This document shows, piece after piece, positions 31,742-62,752 of a DNA stretch of 64,000 nt. Both the position numbers and the translations under genes were made by a program. Origin of the DNA: Acidobacteriota bacterium (GTDB taxonomy: Bacteria > Acidobacteriota > Vicinamibacteria > Vicinamibacterales > CAVVIG01); the NCBI GenBank assembly GCA_040007095.1, contig JBDTVS010000058.1, positions 15,719 to 79,718 of the forward strand. Reading direction: 5' to 3'. Position 1 is the first letter of the stretch. Each line of letters starts with the position of its first letter. Below the pieces are notes generated by a model. It was not told where the DNA came from. It made no database searches and was given only the letters and a program-made list of their open reading frames with translations.

Positions 31742-33772
31742 TCAAGAACCCACTGCGCTGCGGAGAGGTACGCGGCGCTCTCGATTGGTTCGTCGCGGCG
31801 TCGCCGCATGCCATCTGACTCCCAGCAGCGGAACGAAGACTGCGAGAGCGATGCCGGTCGCCACCGCCCATCCGTTCGACCGTGGCGACATCTCTGGCAT
31901 GGCGTGCGACGGAATCAGGTCTTCCCCGTCGTGACGGGTCCCATCGATGCCGATTAACGCCGAACCTTCGGGAACTGTTTCGAGCAGAACCGTCTTCTCC
32001 ACCGGCTGATAGCCGTACAGCTGCACCGAAACGGTCCAGCGGAGGCGGCCGGGCAAACATGGCGGCGCTGGTGTATTGCGGCCCAACGATCTCATTGCCG
32101 CGGCCGCCATTTGATCCCCGGTAGGTTGCCTCCCTTCCCTGATGGCCCGATCGTATTCGTCGGCGGGCGAAGGGCCGGAGGACGGCTGGGAACACCCGTT
32201 GGCGTACCGGGGCCCGTCGGCACGATGAATCGCGCTCCCCGCAGGTGGCTGAGCGGGGGGGGTGTAGAGCTGCAGTACACCCGGCTCCGGCACCCTCTCC
32301 CATTTCAGAAAGCTCTCAATATCCGCGACTTTGGGGCCGAGCCCGATCGAACCTTTTGGTCTTTCGACCACGCGTTCGATTGTGTAGATTCCAATCGCAT
32401 TGCCCCCTCGGCCCGACCTTTCCTCCATACGCTCAGTCGGGGAGGGTTCGTCGCTGATCTGATCGAGCTCGATGACTGGTAGCGGCGACAAGTACGATTT
32501 GTCTTCATAGTCCCGCATGTAGGTAAGGCCCTCAATCGTATAGGTGGCCTTGAGATGCAGCTTCACCGACCCGCCACTGCCCGAAGTCCAGCTGACGACA
32601 GGTTGGTTGAAGATCACCGAGGGCGCCTCGACCTTGATTTGCATCGGGTCGGAGCGCCTCGGGGAGTCGATGATACGACCGGTGCTCTCATACTCGTACG
32701 GGTAGAAGGTCGGCGGCATGAGCGCGTCGCTGCCGAGCTTCTTGGGCCATCGCGGGAACTGGCCGGACGCTTCGTCTTCGATCATCGCTTCGTCGATCAC
32801 CGTCACCGATCTCCCCGGCGAGGGTACAGCGGTCTTGCCGGGCGGGCCACCGACTGGAAACTCGCTCGGCCCCACTGAAACGTTGGTCGGCGATTGCCAC
32901 GGGACCCAGGAACCAATGATCGGATTTCTGTCGATCAACCGGGTGAGGACGACGAGAATCCGGTCCATGTCCGGCACTCTCGTGTTCTGCGGCAGGATTG
33001 GATCCTGGTGCTTCGTGTGAAACGAGCTCAGTGACGCCTGAAACTCCTGCAGCGCCTTGATGCTATCCCGGGTCGCGCACAAGGCTTTGGCTCTGGAGAA
33101 ACTGAGATGATCCGGCAGGTGAGCGGCCGCCGGATGACCACGAAAGGTGTCCCACTCGAAGTGCGCGTAGTAATCCTGAACGAAGTGCATCAACGCGCCG
33201 GGATTTCCCTGGTCCACGGCGAGGCCCATCAGCCACTTCTTCTGCTTCGCCCGCGCCTCCTCCACCTTGGCGGCAACCTCCGCGGTACATGGCCCTCCTG
33301 CGAACTTGTACTTGTTCGGCGTGTTCTCAGGGGTCAGCGGCGGCTTCATGATGGTCGCGAGGCACTGGTGCTCGGGATTCTCGACCTGCCAGCTCCAACT
33401 GCAGCCGTTCACCAGCGTCTCGTCGGCAAACGCGTGAAGGTCGCGCCATTTGTAGGCGAGCGCAGGCTTGCTGCTGCCGAACAGGCCGAGCACCGCGTGG
33501 TTGGCGCCAAATATGCCATCCCACGTCGTCGCCTCCATCGGCGATGTCACGGGCCACCAGTCGAGCGCATAGGCACCGCTCGCAATTTGGAACGCCTGGC
33601 GTTTCGTGAACCCCACTTGAAGGGCCAGGTAGTAGGTCCATGCGTAGTGGTCGAACTCGTATGCACGGACCGGCTGGACCGACACGTCCGAGCAGAGGAA
33701 CGCAAGAAGTAAGAGGGCGCAGATGGCCGGCGAGCGCCTGCGCGACGGGGCACGTGTGATTGGGTTGATCAT
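31742..33772 (-). CDS. Type I membrane protein: signal peptide, large ectodomain with an HxxxD....H motif (possible zinc phospholipase C / P1-nuclease-like fold), C-terminal TM anchor and a 20-aa cytoplasmic tail
   Basis: 676 aa. Signal 'ICALLLLAFLCSDVSVQPVRA'. 'FDHYAWTYYLAL' and 'ALMHFVQDYYAHFEW' His/Asp motifs. The C-terminal helix VATGIALAVFVPLLGVRWHA is paralogous to the TM helix of the next gene. Confidence 0.65.
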   Translation of the reverse strand: MINPITRAPSRRRSPAICALLLLAFLCSDVSVQPVRAYEFDHYAWTYYLALQVGFTKRQAFQIASGAYALDWWPVTSPMEATTWDGIFGANHAVLGLFGSSKPALAYKWRDLHAFADETLVNGCSWSWQVENPEHQCLATIMKPPLTPENTPNKYKFAGGPCTAEVAAKVEEARAKQKKWLMGLAVDQGNPGALMHFVQDYYAHFEWDTFRGHPAAAHLPDHLSFSRAKALCATRDSIKALQEFQASLSSFHTKHQDPILPQNTRVPDMDRILVVLTRLIDRNPIIGSWVPWQSPTNVSVGPSEFPVGGPPGKTAVPSPGRSVTVIDEAMIEDEASGQFPRWPKKLGSDALMPPTFYPYEYESTGRIIDSPRRSDPMQIKVEAPSVIFNQPVVSWTSGSGGSVKLHLKATYTIEGLTYMRDYEDKSYLSPLPVIELDQISDEPSPTERMEERSGRGGNAIGIYTIERVVERPKGSIGLGPKVADIESFLKWERVPEPGVLQLYTPPAQPPAGSAIHRADGPRYANGCSQPSSGPSPADEYDRAIREGRQPTGDQMAAAAMRSLGRNTPAPPCLPGRLRWTVSVQLYGYQPVEKTVLLETVPEGSALIGIDGTRHDGEDLIPSHAMPEMSPRSNGWAVATGIALAVFVPLLGVRWHAATPRRTNRERRVPLRSAVGS

Positions 33773-33795
33773 GGGAGGTCGCCCGTTGCGTTGCT

Positions 33796-34788
33796 CTACG
33801 GGTCCGGTCGTAGTGACGGAGCCGGGGGCAGTCTCGCGTACTCAGCCTTCAATATCTCTGCGTGCCTTGCGGTCTCGGCCGGATCCAGACGGGGAACGGC
33901 CGCCTCATCTTCCGCCGAGATTCCCAAATAGCCCCGGCCACTTGCCCGGGTGGGCAACGGGCGCGAATCAGGCAAGCCGGACGATCCAGTCGATCCGGGA
34001 AGCGCGGATTCCCCGGAGCGCAGCGCATACCATCCGACCGCCAGAAGAGGAACGAGGACCGCGAGCGCGATACCGGTCGCCACACCCCGTCTGGTCGGCG
34101 GCAGCGACATCTTCGGGATCCAGCCCTGAACGCCTATCCCGCCCCAGGCCGGAGCACCTTGTATCTCTCCCCTGAGGAAGCCGAAGTCGATCGTGGTCCC
34201 GGGCGCCAGCTTGATCGTTTTTCCGGGTTCGACGCGGTGCGCGACACCGCCGGGAACCGTTGCCGACCAGGCGTGATCCGTCAGATTCTTGAGGCCGAGC
34301 AGTGCAGGGTCATTCGGGCGGCCGGCCACCTGCGCCGCCGGAGCGCCGGGGCGCCCACTCCGCATCCCCATGACATCCCGTGCGGTGAGCCTCCGCCCTG
34401 CCTTGAGGAGGATTCCCGATCCCGCCGGAGTGCTGAGGACGAAGCCGCTCTGCCCGTCTCGCACTGTTCCTGCGAGCGGACCGAAGTCGATCCGTAGACC
34501 GCTCTCGAGTTTCACGGTTTTCCCCGGCTCGATTTTCCTCCGTCCACCCTCAGGCGCTGGTGCCGACCAGGCATTGCGGCAGAGGTTCTTCAGTCCCAGA
34601 ATGCTGGGATTCGTGGGGTGGCCCGTGACCTCGGCAAATGCCTTGTCAGTTCCGTGGCTCCCCAACTCGACGAACTCCTCCGCGGCGACGGTCGTTCCAT
34701 CCCGAACCTTCAGGGCGCGGCCCGAAGAGAGCCGTATGATGAAAACCTCTTGCGCGCTCACGGCAATCAGGCTATCACGATGCTCCAT
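33796..34788 (-). CDS. Membrane protein with two tandem FHA-like modules (cytoplasmic), one TM helix and a ~75-aa external tail
   Basis: 330 aa. Two ~95-aa repeats each contain ..AEV.GHP.(N/D)P..LGLKNL....W.A..P.G....(I/V)EPGKT(V/I)KL..G..IDFG. These are homologous to the kinase C-terminus. TM helix VATGIALAVLVPLLAVGWYA. Confidence 0.7.
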   Translation of the reverse strand: MEHRDSLIAVSAQEVFIIRLSSGRALKVRDGTTVAAEEFVELGSHGTDKAFAEVTGHPTNPSILGLKNLCRNAWSAPAPEGGRRKIEPGKTVKLESGLRIDFGPLAGTVRDGQSGFVLSTPAGSGILLKAGRRLTARDVMGMRSGRPGAPAAQVAGRPNDPALLGLKNLTDHAWSATVPGGVAHRVEPGKTIKLAPGTTIDFGFLRGEIQGAPAWGGIGVQGWIPKMSLPPTRRGVATGIALAVLVPLLAVGWYALRSGESALPGSTGSSGLPDSRPLPTRASGRGYLGISAEDEAAVPRLDPAETARHAEILKAEYARLPPAPSLRPDP

Positions 34789-34933
34789 CGGCGAACCGCT
34801 CCGGAGGGGACCTAATCAAATCGTCTCCGCCGACAGGGATGGGCTCGCGTCGGGAAGGCGCGACCGAGAGGTGGTCGTGAAAAGGCCTGGATACCGGTTA
34901 CAATCCGCCCGCTCCCGCATTCGGGATGTGACA

Positions 34934-35116
34934 ATGCCGCAGTGTCCCTTCTGTCAATCCGATCTGGGCTCTGGACGCGCCGGGCGCTCTTGCCCGGCCT
35001 GCGGCAAGCCGCTTCCTCAGACGTGGAGTGCAGTGACACCGCGGGTCGGGCAGTTGACGGTGGGCGGTGTGATCGTCACGCTCCTCTGGGTCGTGCTGGT
35101 CAATTCGCGCTGCTGA
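34934..35116 (+). CDS. Zinc-ribbon plus single-TM mini-protein
   Basis: 60 aa from an internal ATG: MPQCPFCQSDL....RSCPACGKPL (CxxC..CxxC), followed by the hydrophobic helix LTVGGVIVTLLWVVLV. It is divergent from the 330-aa gene and sits 35 nt upstream of the next FHA-like gene. Confidence 0.5.
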   Translation: MPQCPFCQSDLGSGRAGRSCPACGKPLPQTWSAVTPRVGQLTVGGVIVTLLWVVLVNSRC

Positions 35117-35150
35117 GCGCGGGACGGATCGAACGTCATGGGGACACAGC

Positions 35151-36257
35151 ATGAGCACGGCTGATACGTTCACTTTGCGACTGAAGTCAGGTCGCACGCT
35201 ATCGTTGCGAGATGGCGTCACGCTGAAAGCCGACGACCTCCTCGGGGTCACATCCACACGTGCTGACGGCGTGGTCGCCGAGGTTTCGCCGAGCCCGCAC
35301 GATCCCAGCGTGCTCGGCCTGATGAACCAGACGCGACACGCGTGGTCCGCCACACTGTCCGACGGCAGTCTGCGCCAGGTCGACCCCGGCAAGAGCATCA
35401 AGTTGGCGGACGGCACGGCGCTCACGATCGCGTCGACGCGCGTCGCTGTCCGACAACGCACTGGCGGATTCGTCCTGAGCATCCCGACCGTTGGCGATAT
35501 TCCACTCAAGAGCGGGACGCGGCTGAAAGCCGGCGAACTGCTCGGTGTGGCCGCGAGCCCCACGGGCGTGGTAGCGGAGGTCGGACGCCACCCGAAAGAT
35601 CCTGCCATTCTGGGCCTCAGGAATCTCACGAATCTTCCCTGGTCCGCCCGCCTCCCGGACGGAAGCCAACGACGCGTCGAACCCGGCAAGAGCATCTCCC
35701 TGACAGGCAGAACGACCATCACCTTCAGCCACGTCGAAGCAACGATCGAAGAACCGATAGCCACGCCCGGGCGGCGATCGCTGGGCCTCAAACCGTACTT
35801 CGATGAGCAGCGGGCGCAGTCGTCGGCGGCACATCCGGTGCGCTCCACGCCGCGGCCGGAGCAGCGCTCGGGATTTGACTGGCAGAATTTTCGACCGGAC
35901 CTTCTGAGCAGCGCGGTCGCCATCGGCTTCGCCGTGCTGACGCGGAGCGTCGTGCCCGTCATCATCTCGATGCTATTGGTCGGCGGCATGCGTCATTTCG
36001 GCCAGGGGATCGATCGAGCGCTCTCGCCGTTCTGGCGACTTCGGGACGTCATCCCTCGACCGCTGCGGATGGGTCTCGGCTGGATCGTTCCAATAGGTGT
36101 GGGCTATTTGATGACGGCATCCCCGACGCTGCAGAACGGGATTGCGCGTTTGCCATTCGGCGCGCCCGAGATCTCCGTCTTCACTGCCACCGCAGTGATC
36201 GCCGCGCCGCTCGCATATTTCCTCGTCCGTGAACCTCAGCGGGGAGCCACGTCGTGA
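35151..36257 (+). CDS. Membrane protein with two tandem FHA-like modules and a C-terminal multi-TM region
   Basis: 368 aa. The repeats contain ..VVAEV...P.DP..LGL.N.T...WSA.L.DGS.R.V(D/E)PGKSI.L. The C-terminal ~130 aa hold about three hydrophobic helices. The stop overlaps the next gene's start by 4 nt. Confidence 0.7.
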   Translation: MSTADTFTLRLKSGRTLSLRDGVTLKADDLLGVTSTRADGVVAEVSPSPHDPSVLGLMNQTRHAWSATLSDGSLRQVDPGKSIKLADGTALTIASTRVAVRQRTGGFVLSIPTVGDIPLKSGTRLKAGELLGVAASPTGVVAEVGRHPKDPAILGLRNLTNLPWSARLPDGSQRRVEPGKSISLTGRTTITFSHVEATIEEPIATPGRRSLGLKPYFDEQRAQSSAAHPVRSTPRPEQRSGFDWQNFRPDLLSSAVAIGFAVLTRSVVPVIISMLLVGGMRHFGQGIDRALSPFWRLRDVIPRPLRMGLGWIVPIGVGYLMTASPTLQNGIARLPFGAPEISVFTATAVIAAPLAYFLVREPQRGATS

Positions 36258-37591
36258 GCCCGTCGCTGGGTAAGGATGGTGAGACGTTGAGGCATCGGGT
36301 GCGCGGGCCGTGGGCCCTGGTCGTGAGTCTCTTTCTTCTGGCGCTGACGCCGCGTGTCTTTGCCGACTCGTGCTTCGAGCGGGCCACGTCGATTCGTCAA
36401 GGAAGCATTCCGTACGGCCAGCCCGATGGCGATTGTGATGCGGGCGGAAAAGCAGGTGCGTACTTCTCGTGGTTTGCCGCGGGCGCGGCAGCTGCAGCCG
36501 CGGCACGGGCGGCGGCTCGCCGGACGCAACAGGGCAAGGCCGAGCGGCCCAACCATTGGCCCACCAACCTGACAGGACCGACGGCGTTCTGCGAACTGGG
36601 CACGGCGATCGCCCAGGAGGACTATCTGCAGACGAAAGTGCCGACGCAGGGAGGGGGCGAGCGCGACCTCAACGATATCGAGAAGACGCTGTACCTCTAC
36701 GAGCGGATGCGGGAAGCCGCGAGGGTGTATGGCCTGAAGGCGCCGACCGAGGGATTCGATTTCATGGACAAATACAAGGTCGGGTTGAGCCGTCGCGATA
36801 CGCTCGTCTCCTGGGGCGTCATCGCCGGTGCCACCCTGCTCGGCGGTTTGGCCGGGAGCGCGGTTTTTGGTCCTGCCGGGTACCTGATCGGTCCCTCACT
36901 CGGGGGACTGGCTGGCACACTCGCGGGAATACTTGGCACGGTCACCGGGGCCTTGGCTTCCGGAGCCGCAGCGCTCCTGTCGGGTTTCGCGACCAACGTG
37001 GGCGATGCGGCTGACCGGTCGATGGACCGGTTCACCGACAAGCAGATTCAGCTCGGTGGCACCGGAATCGGCGCGGTTATCGGCGGCCTGGTCGGAACCC
37101 TGGGGGGTCCTCCCGGCGTGGCGGTCGGGATCGCGGGTGGCGGAATTCTGGGCACCATGCTGTCGCGGCTGTTCACCGGTGGCGACCAGGAGGAGGTCGA
37201 CAGTCTCAAAATGAGCGGAGTCGGCCACTGTGGAGAGTGGTCGCTGGCCTTCAGCAGGCTGCTCAAATGCGCCGGCGTGGCGCAGCAGAAGGTGGCCTAT
37301 GCCGATCACAAACCGGATTCTGTTGCGAGCTACGGCTTTGGCGGGACCGACACGACCGTGATCGTCAAGGACGGCGACGGCAAGAATCGGGTCTTCGACA
37401 TCTTTCGAGAGATGTATGAATCGAAGAACAAAAATCTTCCGTCCGACAAGAGCGTCTTCTCGAATCTGCCAATGACCGCCGGGGATCTTCAACCTTACGA
37501 CTCGATCGACCAGACGCCCAGGGTCTGGCAAAAGGCGATGAAAAAGGAGTTCATCAAGGACAACCAGGGCAACGTGCTCTGGCAGCAGTAA
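36254..37591 (+). CDS. Exported glycine-zipper membrane protein with a C-terminal transglutaminase/papain-like Cys motif (candidate effector)
   Basis: 445 aa. Signal peptide (..LLALTPRVFA). Two long GxxxG-rich blocks (GGLAGSAVFGPAGYLIGPSLGGLAGTLAGILGTVTGALASGAA; GGTGIGAVIGGLVGTLGGPPGVAVGIAGGGILG). 'GVGHCGEWSLAFSRLLKCAGV' resembles the transglutaminase-core Cys motif seen in the genes at 2142 and 5836. Confidence 0.6.
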   Translation: MSPSLGKDGETLRHRVRGPWALVVSLFLLALTPRVFADSCFERATSIRQGSIPYGQPDGDCDAGGKAGAYFSWFAAGAAAAAAARAAARRTQQGKAERPNHWPTNLTGPTAFCELGTAIAQEDYLQTKVPTQGGGERDLNDIEKTLYLYERMREAARVYGLKAPTEGFDFMDKYKVGLSRRDTLVSWGVIAGATLLGGLAGSAVFGPAGYLIGPSLGGLAGTLAGILGTVTGALASGAAALLSGFATNVGDAADRSMDRFTDKQIQLGGTGIGAVIGGLVGTLGGPPGVAVGIAGGGILGTMLSRLFTGGDQEEVDSLKMSGVGHCGEWSLAFSRLLKCAGVAQQKVAYADHKPDSVASYGFGGTDTTVIVKDGDGKNRVFDIFREMYESKNKNLPSDKSVFSNLPMTAGDLQPYDSIDQTPRVWQKAMKKEFIKDNQGNVLWQQ

Positions 37592-37672: not shown

Positions 37673-38284
37673 GTGACAGCCGCGATCTGGCGCCGACCCT
37701 CAATACTTCTGGCGTTCTTCGCCGCGTCGACCTCGGGGCTGGCCATCCTGCTGTACGCCGCCCGCCTGATGACGCTGACCTACGCCGTCTGGATCCTGGC
37801 GCCGCTGACTGCCCTGTTGTTCATCGCGCTGCTGGCGGCGACGGGGCTGAACCCGGAAGACCAGCTGGTTGACCGTCTGCGCGGCGGGCTGATCGCGGGC
37901 TTCATTGGCTTGGTGGCGTACGACATCGTTCGGCTCTTGATCCTGTTGGCGGGAGTGCCCTTCAATCCGTTTCGGCCGATCGAGGTGTACGGACTCCTCA
38001 TCCTTGACCGCTTCGATGACACACTGCTGACGAAGTCGGTTGGCTGGGCCTTTCACATATGGAATGGCCTGTCGTTCGCAGCGATGTATACGCTGGCGGT
38101 CGGACGGGGGCGCGTGCTGTGGGGACTGCTCTGGGGGCTGACGCTGGAGGTGGCGATGCTCTCGAGCTACCCGTCCATCTTTCAGCTATCGGTGAACCGG
38201 CCGTTCGTGATTGTGAGCCTCACGGGACATTTCTTTTACGGCCTCGCCATTGGCATCGCGGCGCGCCGGTTCGTTCGATCCTGA
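37673..38284 (+). CDS. Polytopic membrane protein of unknown function
   Basis: 203 aa with about six hydrophobic helices. No recognisable motif. Confidence 0.6.
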   Translation: MTAAIWRRPSILLAFFAASTSGLAILLYAARLMTLTYAVWILAPLTALLFIALLAATGLNPEDQLVDRLRGGLIAGFIGLVAYDIVRLLILLAGVPFNPFRPIEVYGLLILDRFDDTLLTKSVGWAFHIWNGLSFAAMYTLAVGRGRVLWGLLWGLTLEVAMLSSYPSIFQLSVNRPFVIVSLTGHFFYGLAIGIAARRFVRS

Positions 38285-38695: not shown

Positions 38696-39388
38696 ATGGC
38701 TCTGAGACCAGGCGGCGAACTAGCGACCCGGCCACTCCATTTCATCTGGATCTGCGATTGTTCCGGATCGATGGCGGTCGACGGCAAGATCCAGTCGTTG
38801 AACAACGCGATCCGCGAAGCCGTTCCGCACATGCAGAAGATCGCCGACGAGAATCCCAACGCTCAGGTGCTGGTGCGTTCGTTGATGTTCTCGACCGGCG
38901 CCAGTTGGCATGTGTCGCAACCGACGCCGATCGCCAGCTTCACCTGGTCTGATTTGACCGCCGACGGCGTCACCGACATGGGTCAGGCACTCTCGTCGGT
39001 CGCGAAGGAACTGCGCATTCCACCGATGACCGATCGCGCGCTGCCACCGGTGCTGGTGCTGATTTCCGACGGCCGTCCCACCGACGACTGGAACGCGGGG
39101 CTCAAGGAACTGATGTCGCTTCCCTGGGGAAAGAAATCGGTGCGCGTCGCGATTGCGATTGGCGACGATGCGGACCTCGACGTGCTGCAGGAATTTATCG
39201 GTCCAACCGGTCCGGCGCCGCTGCAGGCGAACAATCCAGAAGCGCTCGTCGGGTACATCAGGTGGGTATCGACGGTCGTGCTGCAATCGGTGTCGCAGCC
39301 CGCGAGCCAGGTCGATCCGAACGCCGCACTGATCCCCGAGGCGCCAAGCGCAGACGATCTCGGCGCGGCCGCGGCCACCATCTGGTAA
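38696..39388 (+). CDS. vWA domain protein (TerY-like)
   Basis: 230 aa. MIDAS motif 'FIWICDCSGSM', '..VTDMGQAL..' and '..VLVLISDGRPTD..'. No signal or TM segment. Its TAA stop overlaps the PP2C ATG (TAATG). Confidence 0.85.
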   Translation: MALRPGGELATRPLHFIWICDCSGSMAVDGKIQSLNNAIREAVPHMQKIADENPNAQVLVRSLMFSTGASWHVSQPTPIASFTWSDLTADGVTDMGQALSSVAKELRIPPMTDRALPPVLVLISDGRPTDDWNAGLKELMSLPWGKKSVRVAIAIGDDADLDVLQEFIGPTGPAPLQANNPEALVGYIRWVSTVVLQSVSQPASQVDPNAALIPEAPSADDLGAAAATIW

Positions 39389-40467
39389 TGAACGGCGGCG
39401 TTTCAGCGTGGCAGCTGATCGGTGAGTGCGTTCGTGGCGCGTCCCACGTGCGGAACGTTTCGCCGAATCAGGATGCGATTGCGTGGCGAGTCGATTCGAC
39501 GACGAACCGTGCGGCCATCATGGCCGTGTCCGACGGTCACGGCAGCGCGAAGTGCTTTCGAAGCGATGCGGGGTCCAGGCTCGCCGTGAACGCGGCCCTT
39601 CGCATCCTGGAAAGTTTTGCATGCAATCCCGCGCCGGTGGATCTGACGGCAGTGGATGGTCAGGCGGCGGATGGTACCGCGGCGGATGCCAAGGCGAACG
39701 ATGGCATCGAAGCCGGGCGCAATGGGCCTGATGGGAACGGGGCCGCGCCCGATCGCCACTCCCGACTGGCTCAGAACATCGTCCTCGAATGGCAGAAGGA
39801 TGTCGACGCGGCGCTAGAGGAGCATCCGCTTTCAACCGAGGAGATGGAGTCGCTCGAGGCGCGAGAGGGCGCCGCGGCTCGTCAGGCCGTGGACCGCAAT
39901 CCTCGCCTGGCTTACGGCGCCACGCTGCTTGCCGCGGTGATTACCGATGCCTACATCCTCTACCTTCAGCTCGGCGACGGCGACATCGTCACCGTCTCGG
40001 ATACGGGGGCCGCGAGCCGGCCGCTCGAACACGATCAGCGGTTGTTCGCGAACGAGACGACGTCGCTCTGCGCCCGAGACGCCTGGCGCGAGATTCGCGT
40101 TCGCTGCGACGAACCGGCCGAACCGGCGCCCGCGTTGATCCTGCTGTCAACCGACGGCTACGCCAATTCCTTCAGAACCGATGCGGGATTTCTGGCGGTG
40201 GGATCGGATCTGCTCGAGATCATCCGCGCCGAAGGGCTCGACAGCGTCGGCGGTCATCTGGAGGGCTGGCTGACCGAGACGTCCCAGGGCGGCAGCGGCG
40301 ATGACATTACACTTGGCATTCTGTGCCGGATGGACGCGGTCGCGTCGTCCAGTAGGTCGTCCAGTAGGTCGTCCAGTAGGTCGTCCAGCAGGTCGTCCAG
40401 CAGATCGCCCGGCGACGACCCGGCGATCCCGCCCGGACCCGCGGACACAACCGAAGTGGCCCGTTGA
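39388..40467 (+). CDS. PP2C-family Ser/Thr protein phosphatase with a C-terminal (SSSR)5 tail
   Basis: Start chosen at MNGGVSAWQLIGECVRGASHVRN..NQDA. Motifs '..AVSDGHGS..' and '..LLSTDGY..' match PP2C metal-binding signatures. Confidence 0.85.
   Translation: MNGGVSAWQLIGECVRGASHVRNVSPNQDAIAWRVDSTTNRAAIMAVSDGHGSAKCFRSDAGSRLAVNAALRILESFACNPAPVDLTAVDGQAADGTAADAKANDGIEAGRNGPDGNGAAPDRHSRLAQNIVLEWQKDVDAALEEHPLSTEEMESLEAREGAAARQAVDRNPRLAYGATLLAAVITDAYILYLQLGDGDIVTVSDTGAASRPLEHDQRLFANETTSLCARDAWREIRVRCDEPAEPAPALILLSTDGYANSFRTDAGFLAVGSDLLEIIRAEGLDSVGGHLEGWLTETSQGGSGDDITLGILCRMDAVASSSRSSSRSSSRSSSRSSSRSPGDDPAIPPGPADTTEVAR
40344..40403. repeat. In-frame 12-bp tandem repeat x5 encoding (SSSR)5
   Basis: gtcgtccagtag x3 followed by gtcgtccagcag x2. 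Confidence 0.85.
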
Positions 40468-41786
40468 ACCAGATCCTCGAGACCAATCAGATCGTACGGA
40501 CCAGCCCTTCGGCCCTGCAGTGCCGGGTTCTGCGGCTGCTCGGGGGCGGCGGACAGGGCGAAGTCTATCTGGCCGATCTCCACGGCAAGCTGGTCGCCTT
40601 GAAGTGGTATCGGCCGATCGCGGCCACGCCACGGCAGCAGACCGGACTCGAAGAGCTCGTGAGGAAGGGGTCTCCAGACGAGCGGTTTCTCTGGCCGCTC
40701 GAGCTGGCGTTCGACCCCCAGACTCCCGGATTCGGGTACGTGATGCTGCTGCGCGAGCCGCGCTTCAAGAGCCTCTACGATCTGATGAAGTGCCGGATCG
40801 CGCCGAGCTTTCGCACGCTCGCCACGGTCGGCCTGTCGCTGTCGGACGCGTTCCTCCGCTTGCATTCCCAGGGCCTCTGCTACCGGGACATCAATTTCGG
40901 CAACGTGTTCTTCGATCCCGATACCGGCGAGGTTCTGATTTGCGATAACGACAACGTCGCGGTTGACGGAGAAGACGAGGGCGTGCTCGGCACGCCGCGT
41001 TTCATGGCGCCCGAGATCGTGCGCGGCGACGCCAGGCCGACGTCGCAATCCGATTTGTTCTCGCTGGCCGTGCTGCTCTTCTACATCTTCATGGTGCACC
41101 ACCCGCTCGAAGGTGCCCAGGAAGCGTCGATCAAGGCGCTCGATGCGCCGGCGATGAAGTGGCTGTACGGCACCAAGCCGGTATTCATCTTCGATCCCGT
41201 CGATCGATGCAATGCGCCGGTGCCCGGACTGCACGACAACGCGGTGATCTACTGGTCGATCTACCCGCAGTTTTTCCGCGACCTCTTCACCAAGGCGTTC
41301 ACCGACGGGATCCGTGATCCGCGCAACGGCAGGGTGCGCGAGAGTGAATGGCGCGCCACGATGGTCCGGCTGCGGGACTCGATCGTTTATTGTCCCGCCT
41401 GCAATGAGCAGAACTTCTACGACGGCGACGCGCTGAAAGCGTCCGGCGGCAAGGCACCAGCATGCTGGGCCTGTCAGAAGGAGGTTCGCCTGCCGCCGCG
41501 AATCCGGATCGGCAAGAGCACAATCGTGATGCTCAACCACGACACGCGCCTGTTCCCGCACCATGTGGACGACCGCTGCGGCTACGATTTCTCCGAGCCG
41601 ATCGCGGAGGTGGCGAAGCATCCGACCGACGCGCGGATCTGGGGGCTCAAGAACGTCTCGAAGACACAATGGACCGGCCAGATCGCCGACGGCACGACCA
41701 GGGATGTGCCGCCAGGACGCAGCGTAACGCTGGCGGCCGGGACACGGATCAATTTCGGTCAGCGAGAGGGCGAGATTCGGGTGTGA
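40464..41786 (+). CDS. Ser/Thr protein kinase with a C-terminal zinc ribbon and an FHA-like module
   Basis: 440 aa. The TTG start overlaps the PP2C stop. Gly-loop LGGGGQGEVY, VALK lysine, catalytic YRDINFGN, DND (DFG-equivalent), GTPRFMAPE. Then CPAC...CWAC, then a module containing ..AEVAKHPTDARIWGLKNVSKTQW......V.PGRSVTL..G..INFG. Confidence 0.9.
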   Translation: MNQILETNQIVRTSPSALQCRVLRLLGGGGQGEVYLADLHGKLVALKWYRPIAATPRQQTGLEELVRKGSPDERFLWPLELAFDPQTPGFGYVMLLREPRFKSLYDLMKCRIAPSFRTLATVGLSLSDAFLRLHSQGLCYRDINFGNVFFDPDTGEVLICDNDNVAVDGEDEGVLGTPRFMAPEIVRGDARPTSQSDLFSLAVLLFYIFMVHHPLEGAQEASIKALDAPAMKWLYGTKPVFIFDPVDRCNAPVPGLHDNAVIYWSIYPQFFRDLFTKAFTDGIRDPRNGRVRESEWRATMVRLRDSIVYCPACNEQNFYDGDALKASGGKAPACWACQKEVRLPPRIRIGKSTIVMLNHDTRLFPHHVDDRCGYDFSEPIAEVAKHPTDARIWGLKNVSKTQWTGQIADGTTRDVPPGRSVTLAAGTRINFGQREGEIRV

Positions 41787-41941
41787 GCCTGATGCCGTTG
41801 GGAAATTCCGTAACGGTTTGTGGCCTGAGACCAGGGCGCTCCAGGCAAGCGACGAGCAACGTGAGCAGGCGATAGACAGCGGACCAGAATGTTTATGTGA
41901 TTCGTTTCGGTTCCCACACCGAACGGTTTTGCGGATCAGCC

Positions 41942-42805
41942 ATGGATAATCAGCCACGACAGAGCCTTCGCGACCTCGTTGCCAAGCACGGCAAGAACGT
42001 CTGTGACGACCCACGGCGATGCGAAGCGTTGTTGCGGGACGCCTGCGGGGCGCACAAACGCGAACTGAACATCCTGATGAACGCGCTCCGCGAGCGCGTG
42101 CCGACGGACCTGCAGACGGGCGATCCCAGACTGCCGCAGGACATCCTGTTGTCGCGGCTCACGACCCGGCTGACGGACCTCGGGCTGGCCGAGGATGCGG
42201 CGCGATGGTCGGTGGATTCATGGGCCCTCGCGCTCGGCGTGATCGCGAAGCCGCGTCCCGATGCGCCGGCGGCGGCGCCATCCCAAGGTCCGACCGGGAC
42301 AACGCAGCGCACAGCGACGCCGAAGCCGCCGAAGCCGACGACACCGGTGGTCGCGGCGAAACCCGTGGTCGCGGTGAAGCGTCCGTCGAGCGCATCACCT
42401 TCGTCGAGTGGATCATCGTCGCCGGGCACTGGCACCTTCGCAAGCCGCTCGACGCCGTCGACGCCCACCGTCTCCTCCGGACCCAGTCGTGCGGGCGCGT
42501 CACCGCCGCCGGCAAGCAACCCCGCGAAGAGCGGTGGCTCTTCCGGATCGGGCGGAGCCCTCCAAGGCTTGTGGGAGTTTGGAGGGTTCCTCCTCTCGAT
42601 TCCGCTGCTGTTCGGATCGGCCATCGTTGTCGCCGGAGCGATGTTCTGGACGCTCTCTCAGATGGGATATGAGTACAAGCAGCTGTCGTCCACCGCTCAA
42701 GCCCTGATAGGCATCCTTTTCCTCGGATTGACGGTCCTCGTGATGGGGGCCATCGTAGCCCTATTCGAAAAGCTCAAGGAGCTGTTTACGCAGTCTCCGA
42801 AGTAG
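41942..42805 (+). CDS. Membrane protein: N-terminal helical domain, long Ser/Thr/Pro-rich linker, two C-terminal TM helices
   Basis: Start chosen at MDNQPRQSLRDLVAKHGKNVCDDPRRCEALLRDACGAHKRELNILMNALRERVP. A ~110-aa S/T/P/A low-complexity stretch follows, then two hydrophobic helices. Confidence 0.6.
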   Translation: MDNQPRQSLRDLVAKHGKNVCDDPRRCEALLRDACGAHKRELNILMNALRERVPTDLQTGDPRLPQDILLSRLTTRLTDLGLAEDAARWSVDSWALALGVIAKPRPDAPAAAPSQGPTGTTQRTATPKPPKPTTPVVAAKPVVAVKRPSSASPSSSGSSSPGTGTFASRSTPSTPTVSSGPSRAGASPPPASNPAKSGGSSGSGGALQGLWEFGGFLLSIPLLFGSAIVVAGAMFWTLSQMGYEYKQLSSTAQALIGILFLGLTVLVMGAIVALFEKLKELFTQSPK

Positions 42806-49753: not shown

Positions 49754-50686
49754 GTGATGCTGAGTCTAGTCATTCCTGTCTTCAAGAATGAGCGCTCGAT
49801 TCCGGACTTGGTCGAGGCAGTGGGAGAACTTGCCCGCTGTCTGCCTGGCGGTTTCGAGGCGATATTCGTAGACGACGGTGGGCCTGATCGAAGCCGCCAA
49901 CTGCTGGCAAATCTGCTTCCAAGCGCTGGATTTCGAGCGCGGCTCGTCATGCTCTCACGAAACTTCGGGTCGTTCGCGGCAATTCGAGCTGGTCTTGCCG
50001 AGGGTTCCGGTGACTATTTCGCCGTCATGTCTGCAGACCTCCAAGAACCGACGACGATCGTAACTGAGTTCTTGAGGTTGCTTGAAGGGCAAATGCACGA
50101 CGTCGTCGTGGGAACCAGGGAGCAGCGAGTCGATCCGCTGTTGAGCCGGGTGGCATCGAGCTTGTTCTGGCGGATTTACCGGCTCGCGGTTCAACGCGAC
50201 GTGCCCGCGGGTGGTGTCGATGTCTTCGGCTGCACGCGGGCATTTCGAGACGAAGTTCTCGCGCTATCGGAGAGAAATTCGACGCTCGTTGGCCTCATCT
50301 TCTGGTTGGGCTGTCGCCGAGCAGAGATTAAATATTCTCGATTGCCTCGGCGCCACGGCGTAAGTGCGTGGTCCTTTTGGCGAAAGGTACGCTACCTCCT
50401 CGACAGCACGTTCGCCTTTTCCGACCTGCCAATCCGCCTTCTGAGTCTGGCAGGGATATCCGGGATGGGGGTGTCACTGCTTCTTGCGGCGGTCGTCCTT
50501 GCGGCAAGAATCAGGGGCAACGTCCAAGTACCAGGTTACACCGCAACAGTCCTTGTTGTGATGTTCTTCGGCGGACTCAACTCGTTCGGGATCGGTGTCC
50601 TCGGCGAGTACCTTTGGCGGACGTTCGAAAATACGAAGCGTCGACCGGATTATGTCGTGCTCAAAACTGAGAATTACGGAGCATAG
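49754..50686 (+). CDS. Family 2 glycosyltransferase (polyprenyl-phosphate sugar transferase type, GtrB/ArnC-like)
   Basis: 310 aa. 'LSLVIPVFKNE', 'FVDDGGPD', 'RNFGSFAAIRAGL' and 'MSADLQEP', plus two C-terminal TM helices. Confidence 0.85.
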   Translation: MMLSLVIPVFKNERSIPDLVEAVGELARCLPGGFEAIFVDDGGPDRSRQLLANLLPSAGFRARLVMLSRNFGSFAAIRAGLAEGSGDYFAVMSADLQEPTTIVTEFLRLLEGQMHDVVVGTREQRVDPLLSRVASSLFWRIYRLAVQRDVPAGGVDVFGCTRAFRDEVLALSERNSTLVGLIFWLGCRRAEIKYSRLPRRHGVSAWSFWRKVRYLLDSTFAFSDLPIRLLSLAGISGMGVSLLLAAVVLAARIRGNVQVPGYTATVLVVMFFGGLNSFGIGVLGEYLWRTFENTKRRPDYVVLKTENYGA

Positions 50687-50689
50687 ATC

Positions 50690-51676
50690 ATGACGCTTGA
50701 ACGGACGTCCGGTGGCTGGTTCCGGCATCCGGCTGCAATTGTCGAGTCATCACAAATCGGGGAGCGAACGCGCGTATGGGCGTTCGCCCATGTGTTGCCC
50801 GGCGCACGGGTCGGCGCCGACTGCAACATTTGCGACCACGTGTTCGTAGAGAACGAAGTAATAGTGGGCGACCGTGTCACCGTCAAATGTGGTGTGCAGT
50901 TATGGGACGGAGTAACGATTGAGGACGACGTCTTTATTGGCCCAAACGCCACTTTCACGAATGATATCTTCCCTCGCAGTCGGATTCAGCAGAAGAGGCC
51001 TACGCCCACTGTCTTGCGACGTGGTGCTTCGATCGGTGCCAATGCAACTGTCGTTTGTGGCGTGACTATTGGGGCGAACGCAATGGTTGGCTCGGGTGCG
51101 GTAGTTACGCACAATGTCCCGGCTAATGCCATCGTCGTTGGCAATCCCGCGTTCATCCATGGCTACGTTGCCGTTGAGAAGGGGGTTCAGGCGCCAGAGA
51201 CGGCGCTTCCTGTCGAACCTTTCCAGACGCTTGCCGTCGGGGGCGTTACGATGTACCGATTGCCGGAGTTCGCTGACCTTCGGGGCGGCTTGGTAGTAGG
51301 GGAAATCGGCAAGCAGCTGCCGTTTGAGCCGAAGCGTTTCTTTGTGGTACACGCCGTCCCTACCCGCCAAGCACGCGGCGAGCATGCACACCGAAACATT
51401 CACCAGTTTATTGTGTGCCTACACGGCGAATGCTCCGTTGTCATCGACGACGGGTTCGCACGCCAAGAAATTCGGCTATCCGAGTTGTGTGTCGGCGTCC
51501 ACGTCCCGCCCATGGTGTGGGCGGTCCAGTACAAGTTCTCGCCGGATGCACTGGTTCTTGTCTTGGCGTCGGGCATTTACGACGCTGCGGAGTACGTCCG
51601 CGATTACGACGAGTTTATCGCACTTGCCACTGATAGCCGAGTAAGGGGGATGGAGAATACAGATTCTGCCCGATGA
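50690..51676 (+). CDS. WxcM-like bifunctional protein: N-terminal hexapeptide-repeat acetyltransferase plus C-terminal FdtA-type sugar 3,4-ketoisomerase (cupin)
   Basis: 328 aa. LbH repeats (..IGERTRVWAFAHVLPGARVGADCNICDHVFVENEVIVGDRVTV..). The C-terminal 'DLRGGL.V.E....LPFEPKRFF.V..VP....RGEHAH' is the FdtA/WxcM C-terminal pattern. Confidence 0.8.
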   Translation: MTLERTSGGWFRHPAAIVESSQIGERTRVWAFAHVLPGARVGADCNICDHVFVENEVIVGDRVTVKCGVQLWDGVTIEDDVFIGPNATFTNDIFPRSRIQQKRPTPTVLRRGASIGANATVVCGVTIGANAMVGSGAVVTHNVPANAIVVGNPAFIHGYVAVEKGVQAPETALPVEPFQTLAVGGVTMYRLPEFADLRGGLVVGEIGKQLPFEPKRFFVVHAVPTRQARGEHAHRNIHQFIVCLHGECSVVIDDGFARQEIRLSELCVGVHVPPMVWAVQYKFSPDALVLVLASGIYDAAEYVRDYDEFIALATDSRVRGMENTDSAR

Positions 51677-51758
51677 GACGCAGGAATTCCGGATCAGACT
51701 GAAGACGAGAGCGCTCGCCGGGGCCTCACCGTTCCTCGCGATCGAGCAGGCATAGCAG

Positions 51759-53324: not shown

Positions 53325-53580
53325 TTTATCCGATAGAGGTGACCGTCCAAGGCCCAGGACCTGCTGTCAAGTACTGAACCGGTAGACTGTCACAGTCTCT
53401 CATGAAGAGATCCATTCGATCGGTTCGGATTGGCAAGCATTGTTCGGAACCGATCGAGCCACTGAATCTGGGCGGCGAAATATAGTTCTTGCGGAATGCC
53501 AAGGCAAGGTCGTCCTTTCGTATCCCCGTTCACAAGGACGAGAACTGCGGTCCTGAAAAGCCAATCACCTCTGAATGGTG

Positions 53581-54153
53581 TCATCGTTCAGACTTCACTC
53601 GGAAACCGAGGGAGGCGTTTAGAAAACCGAACCATTCGTGCGTGACCGCCATCGCATCTGTCCTATTGCGCCACCAGCGTTCGGGCTCAAATGGATCGTC
53701 AGGAGTGAAGCGAACGACCGCTTGGGCGTCGCCCCCGACAAGGCTGTGCCATAGTGCCCTCACGCGTCGAGTGTGATACTTCGACGTGACCAGGATGACG
53801 CGGTCATCAGCCGGATGCAGCTCGCTGGCGATGGCTCGGAGCTCGTCAACCGTGTTCACGGGTCGCTGCGGGAGCACGCGAATGTCGTTGCCAGGTACGC
53901 CAAGGCGCTCGATCACCTGACGGCTATAGTCGGCTTCGAACGGTCGAACGATTCCCAGGCGCATCAGCGCCAAGTCTTCCTTGGAGGGCACCGCGCCCTG
54001 AGTCAACCATATTTCCTTCGTCCAGCCCTGGCGATATATGCGTGCGGCCTCCATAGCACGGAACGGCAAATGGCCACCCAACACGACCACTGCCCGGGCC
54101 GGTTGAAGCGGATCCTCGATCACAAGCCATGTGCCGGCACTCTTCAACGCCAA
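53581..54153 (-). CDS. DUF218 (YdcF/ElyC/SanA) family protein; start codon uncertain
   Basis: 190 aa from a TTG start. 'VVVLGG', '..IWLTQG..' and '..ILVTSKYHTRR..' are DUF218 motifs. An in-frame TM helix is encoded upstream of the first ATG/GTG/TTG. Confidence 0.8.
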   Translation of the reverse strand: MALKSAGTWLVIEDPLQPARAVVVLGGHLPFRAMEAARIYRQGWTKEIWLTQGAVPSKEDLALMRLGIVRPFEADYSRQVIERLGVPGNDIRVLPQRPVNTVDELRAIASELHPADDRVILVTSKYHTRRVRALWHSLVGGDAQAVVRFTPDDPFEPERWWRNRTDAMAVTHEWFGFLNASLGFRVKSER

Positions 54154-54269
54154 CAGCGCCAGCGTTAGTACAACGGCCAGCGAAACGATCGAAACCGCCA
54201 GTCGGCCGCGGAACGCCCTAACCCGGGCCAGCGGCGTACCGGCTGATTCGTTGAAACATTGAAAACAAT

Positions 54270-55727: not shown

Positions 55728-55830
55728 TTGACCAACCCCACCATCAATCCAGTCACACGAGAACTAGACTGAAGTTCCACACGCTCAAGTCGAAGATCTC
55801 CTGATTGCGGTAGCACTTAGTCGCGGAGCT

Positions 55831-62734: not shown

Positions 62735-62752
62735 TGCTGGTACAGCATGACG

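What the first reader, a model, noticed from the sequence alone, without database searches (positions are those of the whole stretch)
33796..36257. One ~95-aa FHA-like module occurs five times in three proteins, including the kinase C-terminus
Four copies lie in two divergently transcribed membrane proteins: aa ~14-110 and ~113-205 of the 330-aa protein, and aa ~6-100 and ~103-195 of the 368-aa protein. The fifth copy is the last ~95 aa of the kinase (nt 41496-41783). All share the pattern h.L...G..L.L..G..L.a.-l........A-V..HP.DP..LGL(K/R)N(L/V)(S/T)...W.A...DG....V.PG+.I.L..G..I.FG...G.I. The spacing of the 'LGLKNLS..W' and 'PGK.I.L..G..I.FG' elements parallels the 'D.GS.NGT' and 'L..GD.I..G' strands of FHA domains. 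I therefore infer a divergent phospho-threonine-binding FHA-like fold. Sharing a reader module between a kinase and its neighbouring membrane proteins implies competition or scaffolding on the same phospho-sites.
Basis: partly seen in the sequence, partly recalled or inferred. Interest (0 to 1): 0.8.

Follow-up and report, generated by a model that had tools for sequence, protein, structure and literature searches.

The report
Unannotated FHA-fold docking module, five copies
A ~100-residue domain that no database annotates is repeated five times in a bacterial kinase and two neighbouring membrane proteins; it is predicted to fold like the phosphopeptide-binding FHA domain but lacks FHA's phosphate-binding residues, and probably tethers the kinase to its membrane partners.

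Summary
One ~100-aa module occurs exactly five times in the window: twice in tandem in each of two divergently transcribed membrane proteins, and once at the C-terminus of a Ser/Thr kinase, directly after a zinc ribbon.

The fold call is supported. AlphaFold2 models are confident (pLDDT 93 and 92). For the kinase module, 49 of the top 50 PDB matches are FHA domains.

The phospho-threonine claim is not shown. Pfam FHA models miss the module even at E<=10, and the profile-profile signal is weak. The FHA Arg, Ser and His equivalents are not conserved. The conserved set is instead GL(K/R)N-L-(S/T)xxxW and PG(R/K)(S/T).

The locus is a TerY-P-like vWA-PP2C-kinase triad. The module family has at least 1,232 clusters and is fused to kinases, vWA proteins, PrsW and trypsin-like proteases and other membrane proteins. 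Extra module-bearing genes recur next to related kinases.

Best reading: a divergent FHA-fold docking domain that links the soluble kinase to membrane clients. The closest precedent is archaeal ArnA (zinc ribbon + FHA) with ArnB (vWA). A candidate ligand is the vWA partner's conserved C-terminal (S/T)xxDVW tail.

I class it as a new variant of a known kind, of moderate interest.

The parts
33796..34788 (-). Protein A (330 aa): two tandem N-terminal modules, one transmembrane segment, short tail
   Evidence: ORF; module HMM; hydrophobic segment aa 233-258. An A-type orthologue with the same architecture is P0169/L088.
34456..34755 (-). Module copy A1 (A aa 12-111)
   Evidence: HMM domain 144 bits; AF2 strands in FHA order.
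34159..34455 (-). Module copy A2 (A aa 112-210)
   Evidence: HMM domain 140 bits; AF2 model.
34015..34092 (-). Transmembrane segment of A (aa 233-258); basic residues lie on the module side
   Evidence: Hydropathy. Near-identical to the C-terminal TM of the 676-aa protein.
35151..36257 (+). Protein B (368 aa): two tandem N-terminal modules plus a C-terminal membrane domain
   Evidence: ORF; identical to P0166; hydrophobic segments aa 251-280 and 340-359. B-type orthologue P0172/L087 is 40% identical over the full length.
35157..35456 (+). Module copy B1 (B aa 3-102)
   Evidence: HMM domain 143 bits.
35460..35750 (+). Module copy B2 (B aa 104-200)
   Evidence: HMM domain 136 bits.
38696..39388 (+). 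vWA (TerY-like) protein, 230 aa, with a DxSxS MIDAS motif and a flexible C-terminal tail ending in ...AAATIW
   Evidence: Pfam VWA E=3e-4, below the gathering score; PADLOC TerY E=0.005. 54 of 56 homologues end in DVW.
39388..40467 (+). PP2C-type phosphatase. The likely ATG at 39388 overlaps the vWA stop. The C-terminus carries an (SSSR)5 repeat.
   Evidence: PF13672 E=4.5e-42; ORF.
40464..41786 (+). Ser/Thr kinase, 440 aa: kinase domain + zinc ribbon + module. The start overlaps the PP2C stop.
   Evidence: Pkinase E=3.4e-16. 100% identical to an NCBI Acidobacteriota MAG protein, and a family 65-69% identical across phyla.
41391..41474 (+). Zinc ribbon CxxC...CxxC (kinase aa 310-337), immediately before the module
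   Evidence: Sequence; Cys positions conserved in 116 homologues; modelled at pLDDT >90.
41487..41780 (+). Module copy K (kinase aa 342-439)
   Evidence: HMM domain 144 bits; AF2 pLDDT 93; Foldseek FHA hits.
41897..42805 (+). 302-aa membrane protein (true start probably ATG 41942). Its N-terminal ~105-aa domain is a fourth conserved component of these kinase loci.
   Evidence: tblastn hits in 69 of 89 loci, always on the kinase strand.
31742..33772 (-). 676-aa exported or membrane protein downstream of A; forms a conserved gene pair with A-type proteins
   Evidence: 43% identical homologue directly after the A-type orthologue in L088/L089.
37673..38284 (+). DUF6789 membrane protein; forms a conserved pair with B-type proteins
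   Evidence: PF20587; 69% identical homologue directly after the B-type orthologue in L087.

Best explanation
The module is a divergent member of the FHA fold, an 11-strand beta-sandwich, and serves as a cytoplasmic docking domain of a TerY-P-like signalling system.

The system has four recurring parts: a vWA protein, a PP2C phosphatase, a Ser/Thr kinase, and a fourth small membrane protein. The soluble kinase carries one module fused behind a zinc ribbon. Client proteins anchored in the membrane (here A and B) carry one or two copies on their cytoplasmic side.

I propose that the module binds a short peptide on a system component, most likely one phosphorylated by the kinase and reset by the PP2C. 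It would do so through a non-canonical site built from GL(K/R)N-L-(S/T)xxxW and PG(R/K)(S/T). In this way the kinase and its membrane clients would assemble on the same partner.

The prime candidate ligand is the flexible C-terminal (S/T)xxDVW tail of the vWA protein. The precedent is archaeal ArnA (zinc ribbon + FHA) binding the phosphorylated C-terminus of the vWA protein ArnB.

What is shown: the repeat, its significance, the fold prediction, the family's distribution and fusions, the recurring gene neighbourhood, and the loss of the canonical FHA residues.

What is inferred: peptide binding, phospho-dependence, the ligand's identity, and the placement of the conserved residues on the FHA binding face. 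That placement comes from strand order only, because no model coordinates were available.
For: Repeat and significance.

Fold:
- Kinase module: AF2 pLDDT 93.4; 49 of the top 50 Foldseek PDB hits are FHA domains (DgcB, MEK1, CEP170, APLF, MDC1, Rv0020c, GarA, ArnA), with probabilities mostly 0.9-1.0.
- Tandem pair of A: pLDDT 92.2, pTM 0.83, with FHA hits at probability 0.9-0.97.
- Collinear hhalign match to an FHA profile, P=6.6e-4 against >=0.03 in 31 controls. The FHA profile itself retrieves 68 distinct PDB FHA-domain sequences.

Cytoplasmic side: proteins such as P0173, P0180 and P0185 have an N-terminal exported domain, a TM segment, a basic stretch, and then the tandem modules.

System context:
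- vWA, PP2C_2 and Pkinase lie on one strand with overlapping stops and starts.
- The same gene order is seen in L001-L006.
- 12 of 86 other kinase loci carry extra module genes. These include vWA-module fusions, FHA(PF00498)-PrsW-module fusions and second kinases.
- Tandem-module proteins P0173 and P0174 sit beside vWA-PP2C-kinase triads.

Candidate ligand: 54 of 56 vWA partners end in DVW, and 39 of 56 have S/T at -6, so that Asp is at +3.

Precedent: ArnA's zinc ribbon and FHA bind the vWA protein ArnB, and the complex is stabilised by C-terminal pThr (bioRxiv 10.64898/2026.08.11.744115).

Prior description: Kaur et al. [quoted passage not shown]
Against: - The canonical phosphate-contacting residues are not conserved. 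The Arg column is mostly Gln in kinases. The Ser equivalent is absent from client-type modules. The His equivalent is hydrophobic.
- No Pfam FHA hit appears at any threshold. hhalign probability is only 22-36% and covers only strands 5-10.
- In Microcystis and Nostoc a canonical FHA and the module coexist in one protein. The module may therefore do something other than read pThr.
- Ser is as common as Thr at position -6 of the vWA tail, whereas canonical FHA domains prefer pThr.
- The window's own vWA tail reads ATIW rather than DVW.
- One A-type orthologue (L088) has no kinase within 10 kb.
- No binding was tested, and residue placement on the model could not be inspected.
Confidence: 0.5

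Rival explanations
1. Phospho-independent adaptor. The module mediates module-to-module (homotypic or heterotypic) association and recruits membrane clients to the kinase without any phosphate reading. This is how effector-associated domains work in bacterial conflict systems. The tandem pairs would then be covalent pseudo-dimers of the same interface.
For: - The same domain sits on several components of one locus.
- The canonical FHA phospho-binding residues are lost.
- A canonical FHA and the module coexist in FHA-PrsW-module proteins.
- The tandem pair models as one rigid unit with pTM 0.83.
- Homotypic effector-associated domains are an established theme in related vWA-containing systems (PMC7159879).
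Against: - The conserved surface residues are polar and basic (K/R, N, S/T, R/K-S/T) rather than a hydrophobic patch.
- Kinase-type and client-type modules differ sharply in the strand 3-5 loops, so they are not simple copies of one interface.
- A kinase and a PP2C in every locus argue that phosphorylation controls something in the complex.
- The high pTM may only reflect the very short linker.
Confidence: 0.3
2. Acidic C-terminal tail receptor. The module binds the vWA protein's ...DDVW-COOH tail directly, through its conserved basic residues and a Trp pocket. Phosphorylation would not be needed, or would only tune affinity.
For: - DVW-COOH is present in 54 of 56 vWA partners, at the end of a Pro-rich linker.
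- The module has about 90% conserved basic positions, in GL(K/R)N and PG(R/K)(S/T).
Against: - Nothing assigns this tail to the module rather than to the PP2C, the zinc ribbon or the 302-aa protein's N-domain.
- In ArnA/ArnB the vWA protein contacts the zinc ribbon.
- The window's own tail is ATIW.
Confidence: 0.12
3. Nucleic-acid or other non-protein ligand binding. This follows the suggestion in the literature that C-terminal extensions of TerY-P-like kinases (zinc ribbon, 'OB-fold') bind oligonucleotides.
For: - The CoCoNuT paper makes this suggestion for TerY-P kinases (PMC11090510).
- A zinc ribbon directly precedes the module.
- JGI labels relatives 'DNA-binding helix-hairpin-helix protein with protein kinase domain'.
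Against: - Foldseek lists no OB-fold protein among the top 50 hits, which are FHA domains except one.
- The module is mostly on membrane-anchored proteins and on vWA and protease fusions.
- The JGI label is a COG name, not evidence.
Confidence: 0.05

Closest known systems
Canonical FHA domain (Pfam PF00498; e.g. Rad53 FHA1, GarA, DgcB, the two FHA domains of Rv1747)
   Same: Predicted fold and strand order. The C-terminal 'v..G....L..GD.I.iG'-like motif is shared. The size is about 100 aa. It occurs on kinases (as in Rad53 and Chk2) and in tandem on the cytoplasmic side of membrane proteins (as in Rv1747; own knowledge). It sits beside a Ser/Thr kinase and a PP2C.
   Different: Pfam FHA and Yop-YscD models do not detect it at any threshold. 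The Gly-Arg, Ser-x-x-His and Asn-Gly signature is replaced by GL(K/R)N-L-(S/T)xxxW, (N/H)PxDP and PG(R/K)(S/T). Strand 4 is replaced by a short helix in the models. pThr binding is unproven.
ArnA (zinc ribbon + FHA) / ArnB (vWA) / ArnC,D kinases / PP2A switch of Sulfolobus acidocaldarius
   Same: A zinc ribbon lies directly N-terminal to an FHA(-like) domain. There is a vWA partner with a functionally important C-terminal tail. A kinase and a phosphatase act on the same operon-level module. The ArnA FHA (5a8i) is among the Foldseek hits.
   Different: Here the zinc-ribbon-FHA-like unit is fused to the kinase itself. The phosphatase is PP2C, not PP2A. Extra copies of the module sit on membrane proteins. 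There is no detectable sequence similarity to ArnA. The organism is bacterial.
TerY-P triad (Anantharaman et al. 2012; as described in PMC11090510) and the E. coli YegL-PphC-YegI operon (bioRxiv 10.1101/819920)
   Same: A vWA protein, a PP2C phosphatase and a eukaryotic-like Ser/Thr kinase in one operon. The kinase is extended at its C-terminus by a zinc ribbon.
   Different: The PADLOC TerY model hits only weakly (E=0.005), and the kinase's best PADLOC hits are mad6 and PD-T4-6 models. YegI has a TM hairpin instead of the module. The published descriptions stop at 'zinc ribbon', 'beta-strand-rich domain' or 'OB-fold' and do not report sharing of the module with membrane clients.
[quoted passage not shown]
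   Same: Probably the same or a closely related architecture.
   Different: That paper reports it for actinobacterial GAP1-N2 GTPase neighbourhoods and leaves the domain unassigned. Here the domain gets a fold assignment, a family census and a set of partner architectures. Identity of the two domains was not tested.

Membership tests
FHA domain (PF00498) | 11-stranded beta-sandwich with FHA topology | tested here: met
   AF2 pLDDT 93.4 and 92.2. For the kinase-module model, 49 of the top 50 Foldseek PDB hits are FHA domains, TM to target 0.55-0.64. For the tandem model of A only the high-probability hits (0.87-0.97) are FHA domains; the rest of its top 50 are unrelated proteins at low probability. 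Strand order comes from DSSP. Strand 4 appears as a short helix.
FHA domain (PF00498) | Match to the family HMM (PF00498, or the related PF16697 Yop-YscD_cpl) | tested here: not met
   The five window copies have no hit. No FHA family is among those listed for 128 module proteins. None of 40 isolated modules hits at E<=10. The same scan finds PF00498 at E=3.6e-17 in the N-terminus of a neighbouring protein, so the test works.
FHA domain (PF00498) | Profile-profile similarity to FHA | tested here: inconclusive
   hhalign probability 22-36%, P=4e-4 to 1e-3, collinear over strands 5-10 only. It exceeds the reversed control and 30 shuffled controls.
FHA domain (PF00498) | Conserved Gly-Arg at the strand 3/4 loop (phosphate contact) | tested here: not met
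   The Gly is kept in client modules but is Asp in kinases. The nearest basic column reads Q71/R23/K16 in 120 kinases and is R/K in 61% of 129 family members.
FHA domain (PF00498) | Conserved Ser-x-x-His before strand 5 | tested here: not met
   Ser is present in 109 of 120 kinase modules but is D/G in client modules. The His position is V/I/F throughout.
FHA domain (PF00498) | Conserved Asn in the strand 6/7 loop | tested here: inconclusive
   An invariant Asn exists in GLKN at the end of strand 6. hhalign aligns it to the FHA Asp two to three positions upstream of the canonical Asn. No coordinates were available to settle the register.
FHA domain (PF00498) | Binds phospho-threonine peptides | not testable with these tools
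   Needs binding assays or a co-structure.
TerY-P-like triad | vWA protein with a MIDAS motif in the operon | tested here: met
   Pfam VWA E=3e-4, below the gathering score. A DCSGS motif is visible in the sequence. PADLOC TerY E=0.005. vWA homologues occur in 61 of 89 related loci.
TerY-P-like triad | PP2C phosphatase and an active-looking Ser/Thr kinase with a C-terminal zinc ribbon, co-oriented | tested here: met
   PP2C_2 E=4.5e-42; Pkinase E=3.4e-16. The Lys, YRD..N, DND and APE motifs are present in the sequence and the family consensus. CxxC...CxxC is conserved. Stops and starts overlap.
TerY-P anti-phage system as modelled in PADLOC | Proteins match the system's HMMs | tested here: not met
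   There is only a weak TerY hit. The PP2C has no hit. The kinase's best hits are mad6 and PD-T4-6 models. A defence role is therefore not established.
ArnA/ArnB-type zinc-ribbon-FHA : vWA switch | Zinc ribbon adjacent to the FHA(-like) domain, plus a vWA partner | tested here: met
   The zinc ribbon (aa 310-337) directly precedes the module (aa 342-439). The vWA gene lies two genes upstream.
ArnA/ArnB-type zinc-ribbon-FHA : vWA switch | Phosphorylated C-terminal tail of the vWA partner stabilises the complex | not testable with these tools
   A conserved C-terminal (S/T)xxDVW tail exists. Its phosphorylation and binding are untested.

The most novel reading that the evidence does not exclude
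The module founds a new FHA-fold family that has abandoned the canonical pThr pocket. It would use a different conserved surface, GL(K/R)N-L-(S/T)xxxW plus PG(R/K)(S/T), to capture a short C-terminal motif: the vWA partner's (S/T)xxDVW tail, possibly as pSer. By placing the same receptor on the kinase and on an interchangeable set of membrane proteases, transporters and sensors, it would wire one kinase/phosphatase/vWA core to variable membrane clients. That would be an adaptor logic not yet described for bacterial Ser/Thr signalling or for TerY-P-type conflict systems.
Probability: 0.25. Interest if true: 0.75.

Novelty: new variant of a known kind. Interest (0 to 1): 0.55.

Why it matters
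TerY-P-type vWA-PP2C-kinase triads are widespread. They have been linked to stress responses and phage defence, but it is not known how the kinase finds its partners.

This analysis assigns a fold to the unassigned C-terminal domain of one large kinase family. That family is 65-69% identical across Acidobacteriota, Chloroflexota and Cyanobacteria, and slightly more distant copies occur in Gammaproteobacteria.

It also shows that the same domain marks a variable set of membrane proteins in the same loci. This turns the partner question into concrete experiments on defined peptides, residues and protein pairs.

The domain has no Pfam or NCBIfam model despite at least 1,232 sequence clusters, so it would be a useful new family entry.

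It is also an example of an FHA fold that has replaced the canonical phosphate-binding residues. That bears on how far fold alone predicts phosphopeptide reading.

Tried and rejected
- PDB sequence search with the five-copy profile found nothing even at E<=10.
- Pfam and NCBIfam scans of the nine locus proteins gave no hit on the module.
- A Pfam scan of 40 isolated modules at E<=10 returned only scattered chance hits and no FHA family.
- Foldseek against the viral BFVD library gave nothing meaningful: best E=0.1 with low TM.
- PADLOC gave no system-level match, so I do not call this a defence system.
- A homology search with full-length protein B found only itself plus one kinase matched through the module. 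A and B as whole proteins are rare. Relatives were reached only with the profile search.
I scanned genomes with the kinase C-terminus instead.
- I tested whether the Ser/Thr-rich linker of the 302-aa protein is a general phospho-substrate feature. It is not: the median maximum S/T content among 69 homologues is unremarkable.
- I looked for model coordinates to map the conserved residues in 3D. None are exposed, so loop assignments rest on DSSP strand order.
- Rfam found nothing in the window.
It was accepted only after it retrieved 68 distinct PDB FHA-domain sequences, including the proteins it was meant to represent.
Full report
**1. The observation**

Protein A (330 aa) is at 33796-34788 on the minus strand. 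Protein B (368 aa) is at 35151-36257 on the plus strand, transcribed divergently from A. The 440-aa kinase is at 40464-41786 on the plus strand.

All ten pairs among the five proposed segments align by BLASTP at 30-47% identity and 48-82 bits. Eleven columns are invariant. Copy 1 of A is closest to copy 1 of B, and copy 2 of A to copy 2 of B. The tandem duplication therefore predates the split between A and B.

An HMM built from the five segments was run on every stop-to-stop frame of the 64-kb window. It finds exactly these five domains (136-144 bits each) and nothing else below E=2.5.

**2. Fold**

Pfam, NCBIfam and a PDB sequence search give nothing for the module.

I modelled kinase residues 297-440 (zinc ribbon plus module) with AlphaFold2, using a 109-sequence alignment. 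The result was pLDDT 93.4 and pTM 0.85. After the zinc ribbon the model is all-beta, with ten strands in the order expected for FHA and a short helix where FHA has strand 4.

Foldseek against the PDB returned FHA domains for 49 of the top 50 hits. These include DgcB, MEK1, CEP170, APLF, MDC1, Rv0020c/FhaA, GarA, Ki67, PNKP, Chk2 and ArnA. Probabilities were mostly 0.9-1.0, and TM scores normalised to the target were 0.55-0.64. E-values were only 5e-3 to 0.1.

The tandem pair of protein A (aa 1-215) also models confidently: pLDDT 92.2 and pTM 0.83. Its high-probability hits are again FHA domains: APLF, TIFA, DgcB and Pellino.

**3. Is it a canonical FHA?**

I built an FHA reference alignment from ten sequences recalled from memory. 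It shows the invariant G-R and S and the nearly invariant H and N. It retrieves 68 distinct PDB FHA-domain sequences, including the proteins it was meant to represent.

hhalign of a 129-member module alignment against this reference gives only 27% probability (P=6.6e-4). The match is collinear over strands 5-10. It aligns LkNLS...W with l.D.S.NG.T, and V.PGrSv.La.Gt.I.FG with v..g....L..GD.I.iG. A reversed FHA profile scores P=0.03, and thirty column-shuffled profiles score P>=0.06. The signal is therefore weak but real.

Column statistics argue against a canonical site:
- The basic column in strand 3, nearest the FHA Arg, reads Q71/R23/K16 in 120 kinases. It is R/K in 61% of the 129-member family alignment.
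- The Ser equivalent is Ser in 109 of 120 kinase modules, but Asp or Gly in membrane-protein modules.
- The His equivalent is V/I/F.

The family-wide conserved set is different. It comprises (N/H)PxDP; GL(K/R)N-L-(S/T)xxxW with invariant Asn and Trp; and PG(R/K)(S/T), which is 92% basic. By strand parity the latter two motifs lie in the 6/7 and 8/9 loops, at the same end of the sandwich as the FHA peptide site. That placement is inference, because the tools expose no coordinates.

Kinase-type modules additionally carry a near-invariant PHH...YDFS in the loops that form the pThr pocket in FHA. Client-type modules have D(L/I)PGL there. The two subtypes therefore differ exactly where canonical FHA binds its ligand, and they share the other half of the domain.

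None of 40 isolated modules hits Pfam FHA or Yop-YscD, even at E<=10.

**4. The family**

An exhaustive profile search of 1.84 billion representative proteins finds 1,232 clusters at E<=1e-3 and 639 at E<=1e-10.

Among the best 150 hits, the module positions are as follows:

| Arrangement | Proteins |
|---|---|
| Single, C-terminal | 81 |
| Single, N-terminal | 32 |
| Tandem, N-terminal | 21 |
| Tandem, C-terminal | 9 |

Fusion partners among 128 of these proteins are vWA (12), protein kinase (7), PrsW intramembrane protease (5), trypsin-like protease (3), a T4SS coupling protein, WD40, HEAT and RDD.

Where a protein has an exported N-terminal domain, the modules follow a TM segment and a basic stretch (P0173, P0180, P0185). 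The module is therefore cytoplasmic.

**5. Context**

The window comes from an Acidobacteriota MAG.

Downstream of B, on the same strand, lie:
- a 445-aa membrane protein
- DUF6789
- a vWA protein with a DxSxS motif
- a PP2C_2 phosphatase
- the kinase
- a 302-aa membrane protein

The vWA/PP2C and PP2C/kinase junctions overlap. This is the TerY-P-like triad described in the literature (PMC11090510). The E. coli analogue is YegL-PphC-YegI (bioRxiv 10.1101/819920).

Kaur et al. [quoted passage not shown]

The kinase family is about 440 aa and 65-69% identical across Acidobacteriota, Chloroflexota and Cyanobacteria. Copies whose C-terminal region is 56-58% identical also occur in Gammaproteobacteria. 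A scan of 185,579 species genomes found 262 stretches that encode a relative of the kinase C-terminus.

**6. Recurrence of module sharing**

In 86 other kinase loci, 12 carry additional module-bearing genes within the available flank. Many of these contigs are short. The extra genes include:
- vWA-module fusions (L001, L011, L051)
- FHA(PF00498)-PrsW-module proteins in Microcystis and Nostoc
- second kinases
- unannotated membrane proteins

Microcystis has four module-bearing genes in 10 kb.

Starting instead from tandem-module proteins:
- P0173 lies directly upstream of a vWA-PP2C-kinase (440 aa) triad.
- P0174 lies in a locus that mirrors the window. It has a divergent single-module gene, the tandem protein, a vWA ending in DDVW, a PP2C, a kinase with zinc ribbon and module, and a homologue of the 302-aa protein.
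- The A-type orthologue P0169 has no kinase within 10 kb.
- Two further cases are cut off by contig ends.

A is paired with the 676-aa protein, and B with DUF6789, in other genomes too.

**7. Mechanism**

The module behaves as a mobile cytoplasmic docking domain that marks both the kinase and its membrane clients.

The closest worked-out precedent is Sulfolobus ArnA (zinc ribbon + FHA). It binds the vWA protein ArnB through the zinc ribbon, and the complex is stabilised by pThr in ArnB's C-terminal tail. The sites are written by the kinases ArnC and ArnD and erased by PP2A (bioRxiv 10.64898/2026.08.11.744115).

Here the same zinc-ribbon-FHA(-like) unit is fused to the kinase. The vWA partners have a striking conserved feature: a Pro-rich flexible linker ending in DVW-COOH in 54 of 56 cases. 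S/T is at -6 in 39 of 56, which places Asp at +3, the pTxxD pattern of Rad53 FHA1 (own knowledge).

I therefore propose that the module binds such a tail, or another kinase-made phospho-site, and that kinase and clients assemble on it, with the PP2C resetting the state.

The main rival is a phospho-independent module-module adaptor. It is favoured by the loss of the canonical residues, by the coexistence of a true FHA with the module in one protein, and by the rigid tandem model. A direct acidic-tail receptor and nucleic-acid binding are less likely alternatives.

**8. Verdict**

The FHA-like fold is supported. pThr reading is unproven, and the canonical site is not retained.

This is a new, unannotated, divergent branch of a known fold inside a known type of operon. 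Sharing of the module between the kinase and its membrane clients has, as far as the searched literature shows, not been described.

Noticed in passing
window 39359-39385 (end of the vWA gene 38696-39388); homologues in L001-L086: The vWA partner ends in a Pro-rich flexible linker followed by a conserved C-terminal motif. 54 of 56 homologues end in DVW-COOH, and 39 of 56 have S/T at -6 (consensus (S/T)xxDVW). The window copy ends in AAATIW. It looks like a short linear docking motif.
   Followed up: partly
window 41897-42805 (probable start ATG 41942): The N-terminal ~105 aa of the 302-aa membrane protein form a domain found in 69 of 89 related kinase loci. It is always on the kinase strand and is fused to variable C-termini (TM segments, beta-helix and others). 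It has no Pfam match and appears to be a fourth core component of the system.
   Followed up: partly
window 34015-34092 and 31811-31876 (both minus strand): The TM segment of protein A and the C-terminal TM of the downstream 676-aa protein share VATGIALAV(L/F)VPLL(A/G)V.W.A, with about 78% DNA identity over 87 nt. The 676-aa homologue in L088 lacks this segment, so it looks like a local segmental copy.
   Followed up: partly
window 31742-34788; L088 10001-12719; L087 9784-11303: Two conserved gene pairs: an A-type tandem-module protein followed by a homologue of the 676-aa exported protein (43% identity), and a B-type protein followed by DUF6789 (69% identity). In the window a 445-aa Gly-rich membrane protein (36254-37591) with no homologue in any fetched locus is inserted between B and DUF6789.
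   Followed up: partly
L024 14338-15975; L009 7995-9632: Microcystis and Nostoc encode proteins with a canonical FHA (PF00498, E~4e-17), a PrsW intramembrane protease and the module at the C-terminus, a few kb from the kinase. A true FHA and the FHA-like module therefore coexist in one polypeptide.
   Followed up: partly
window ~40380-40440 (C-terminus of the PP2C): The PP2C ends in a perfect (SSSR)5 peptide repeat, a Ser-rich tail next to a Ser/Thr kinase gene. The opposite strand reads (DDLL)n in a spurious ORF.
   Followed up: no
window 50000-64000: GC content falls from about 0.65 to 0.53-0.58, and AT skew is strongly positive (0.17-0.18) at 52-58 kb, where several long minus-strand ORFs lie. 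This may be a compositionally distinct region. Rfam finds no RNA family anywhere in the window.
   Followed up: no
kinase 40464-41786, activation segment: The segment between DND and APE (VAVDGEDEGVLGTPRFMAPE) is acidic and has almost no Ser/Thr. The kinase may therefore not need activation-loop phosphorylation.
   Followed up: no
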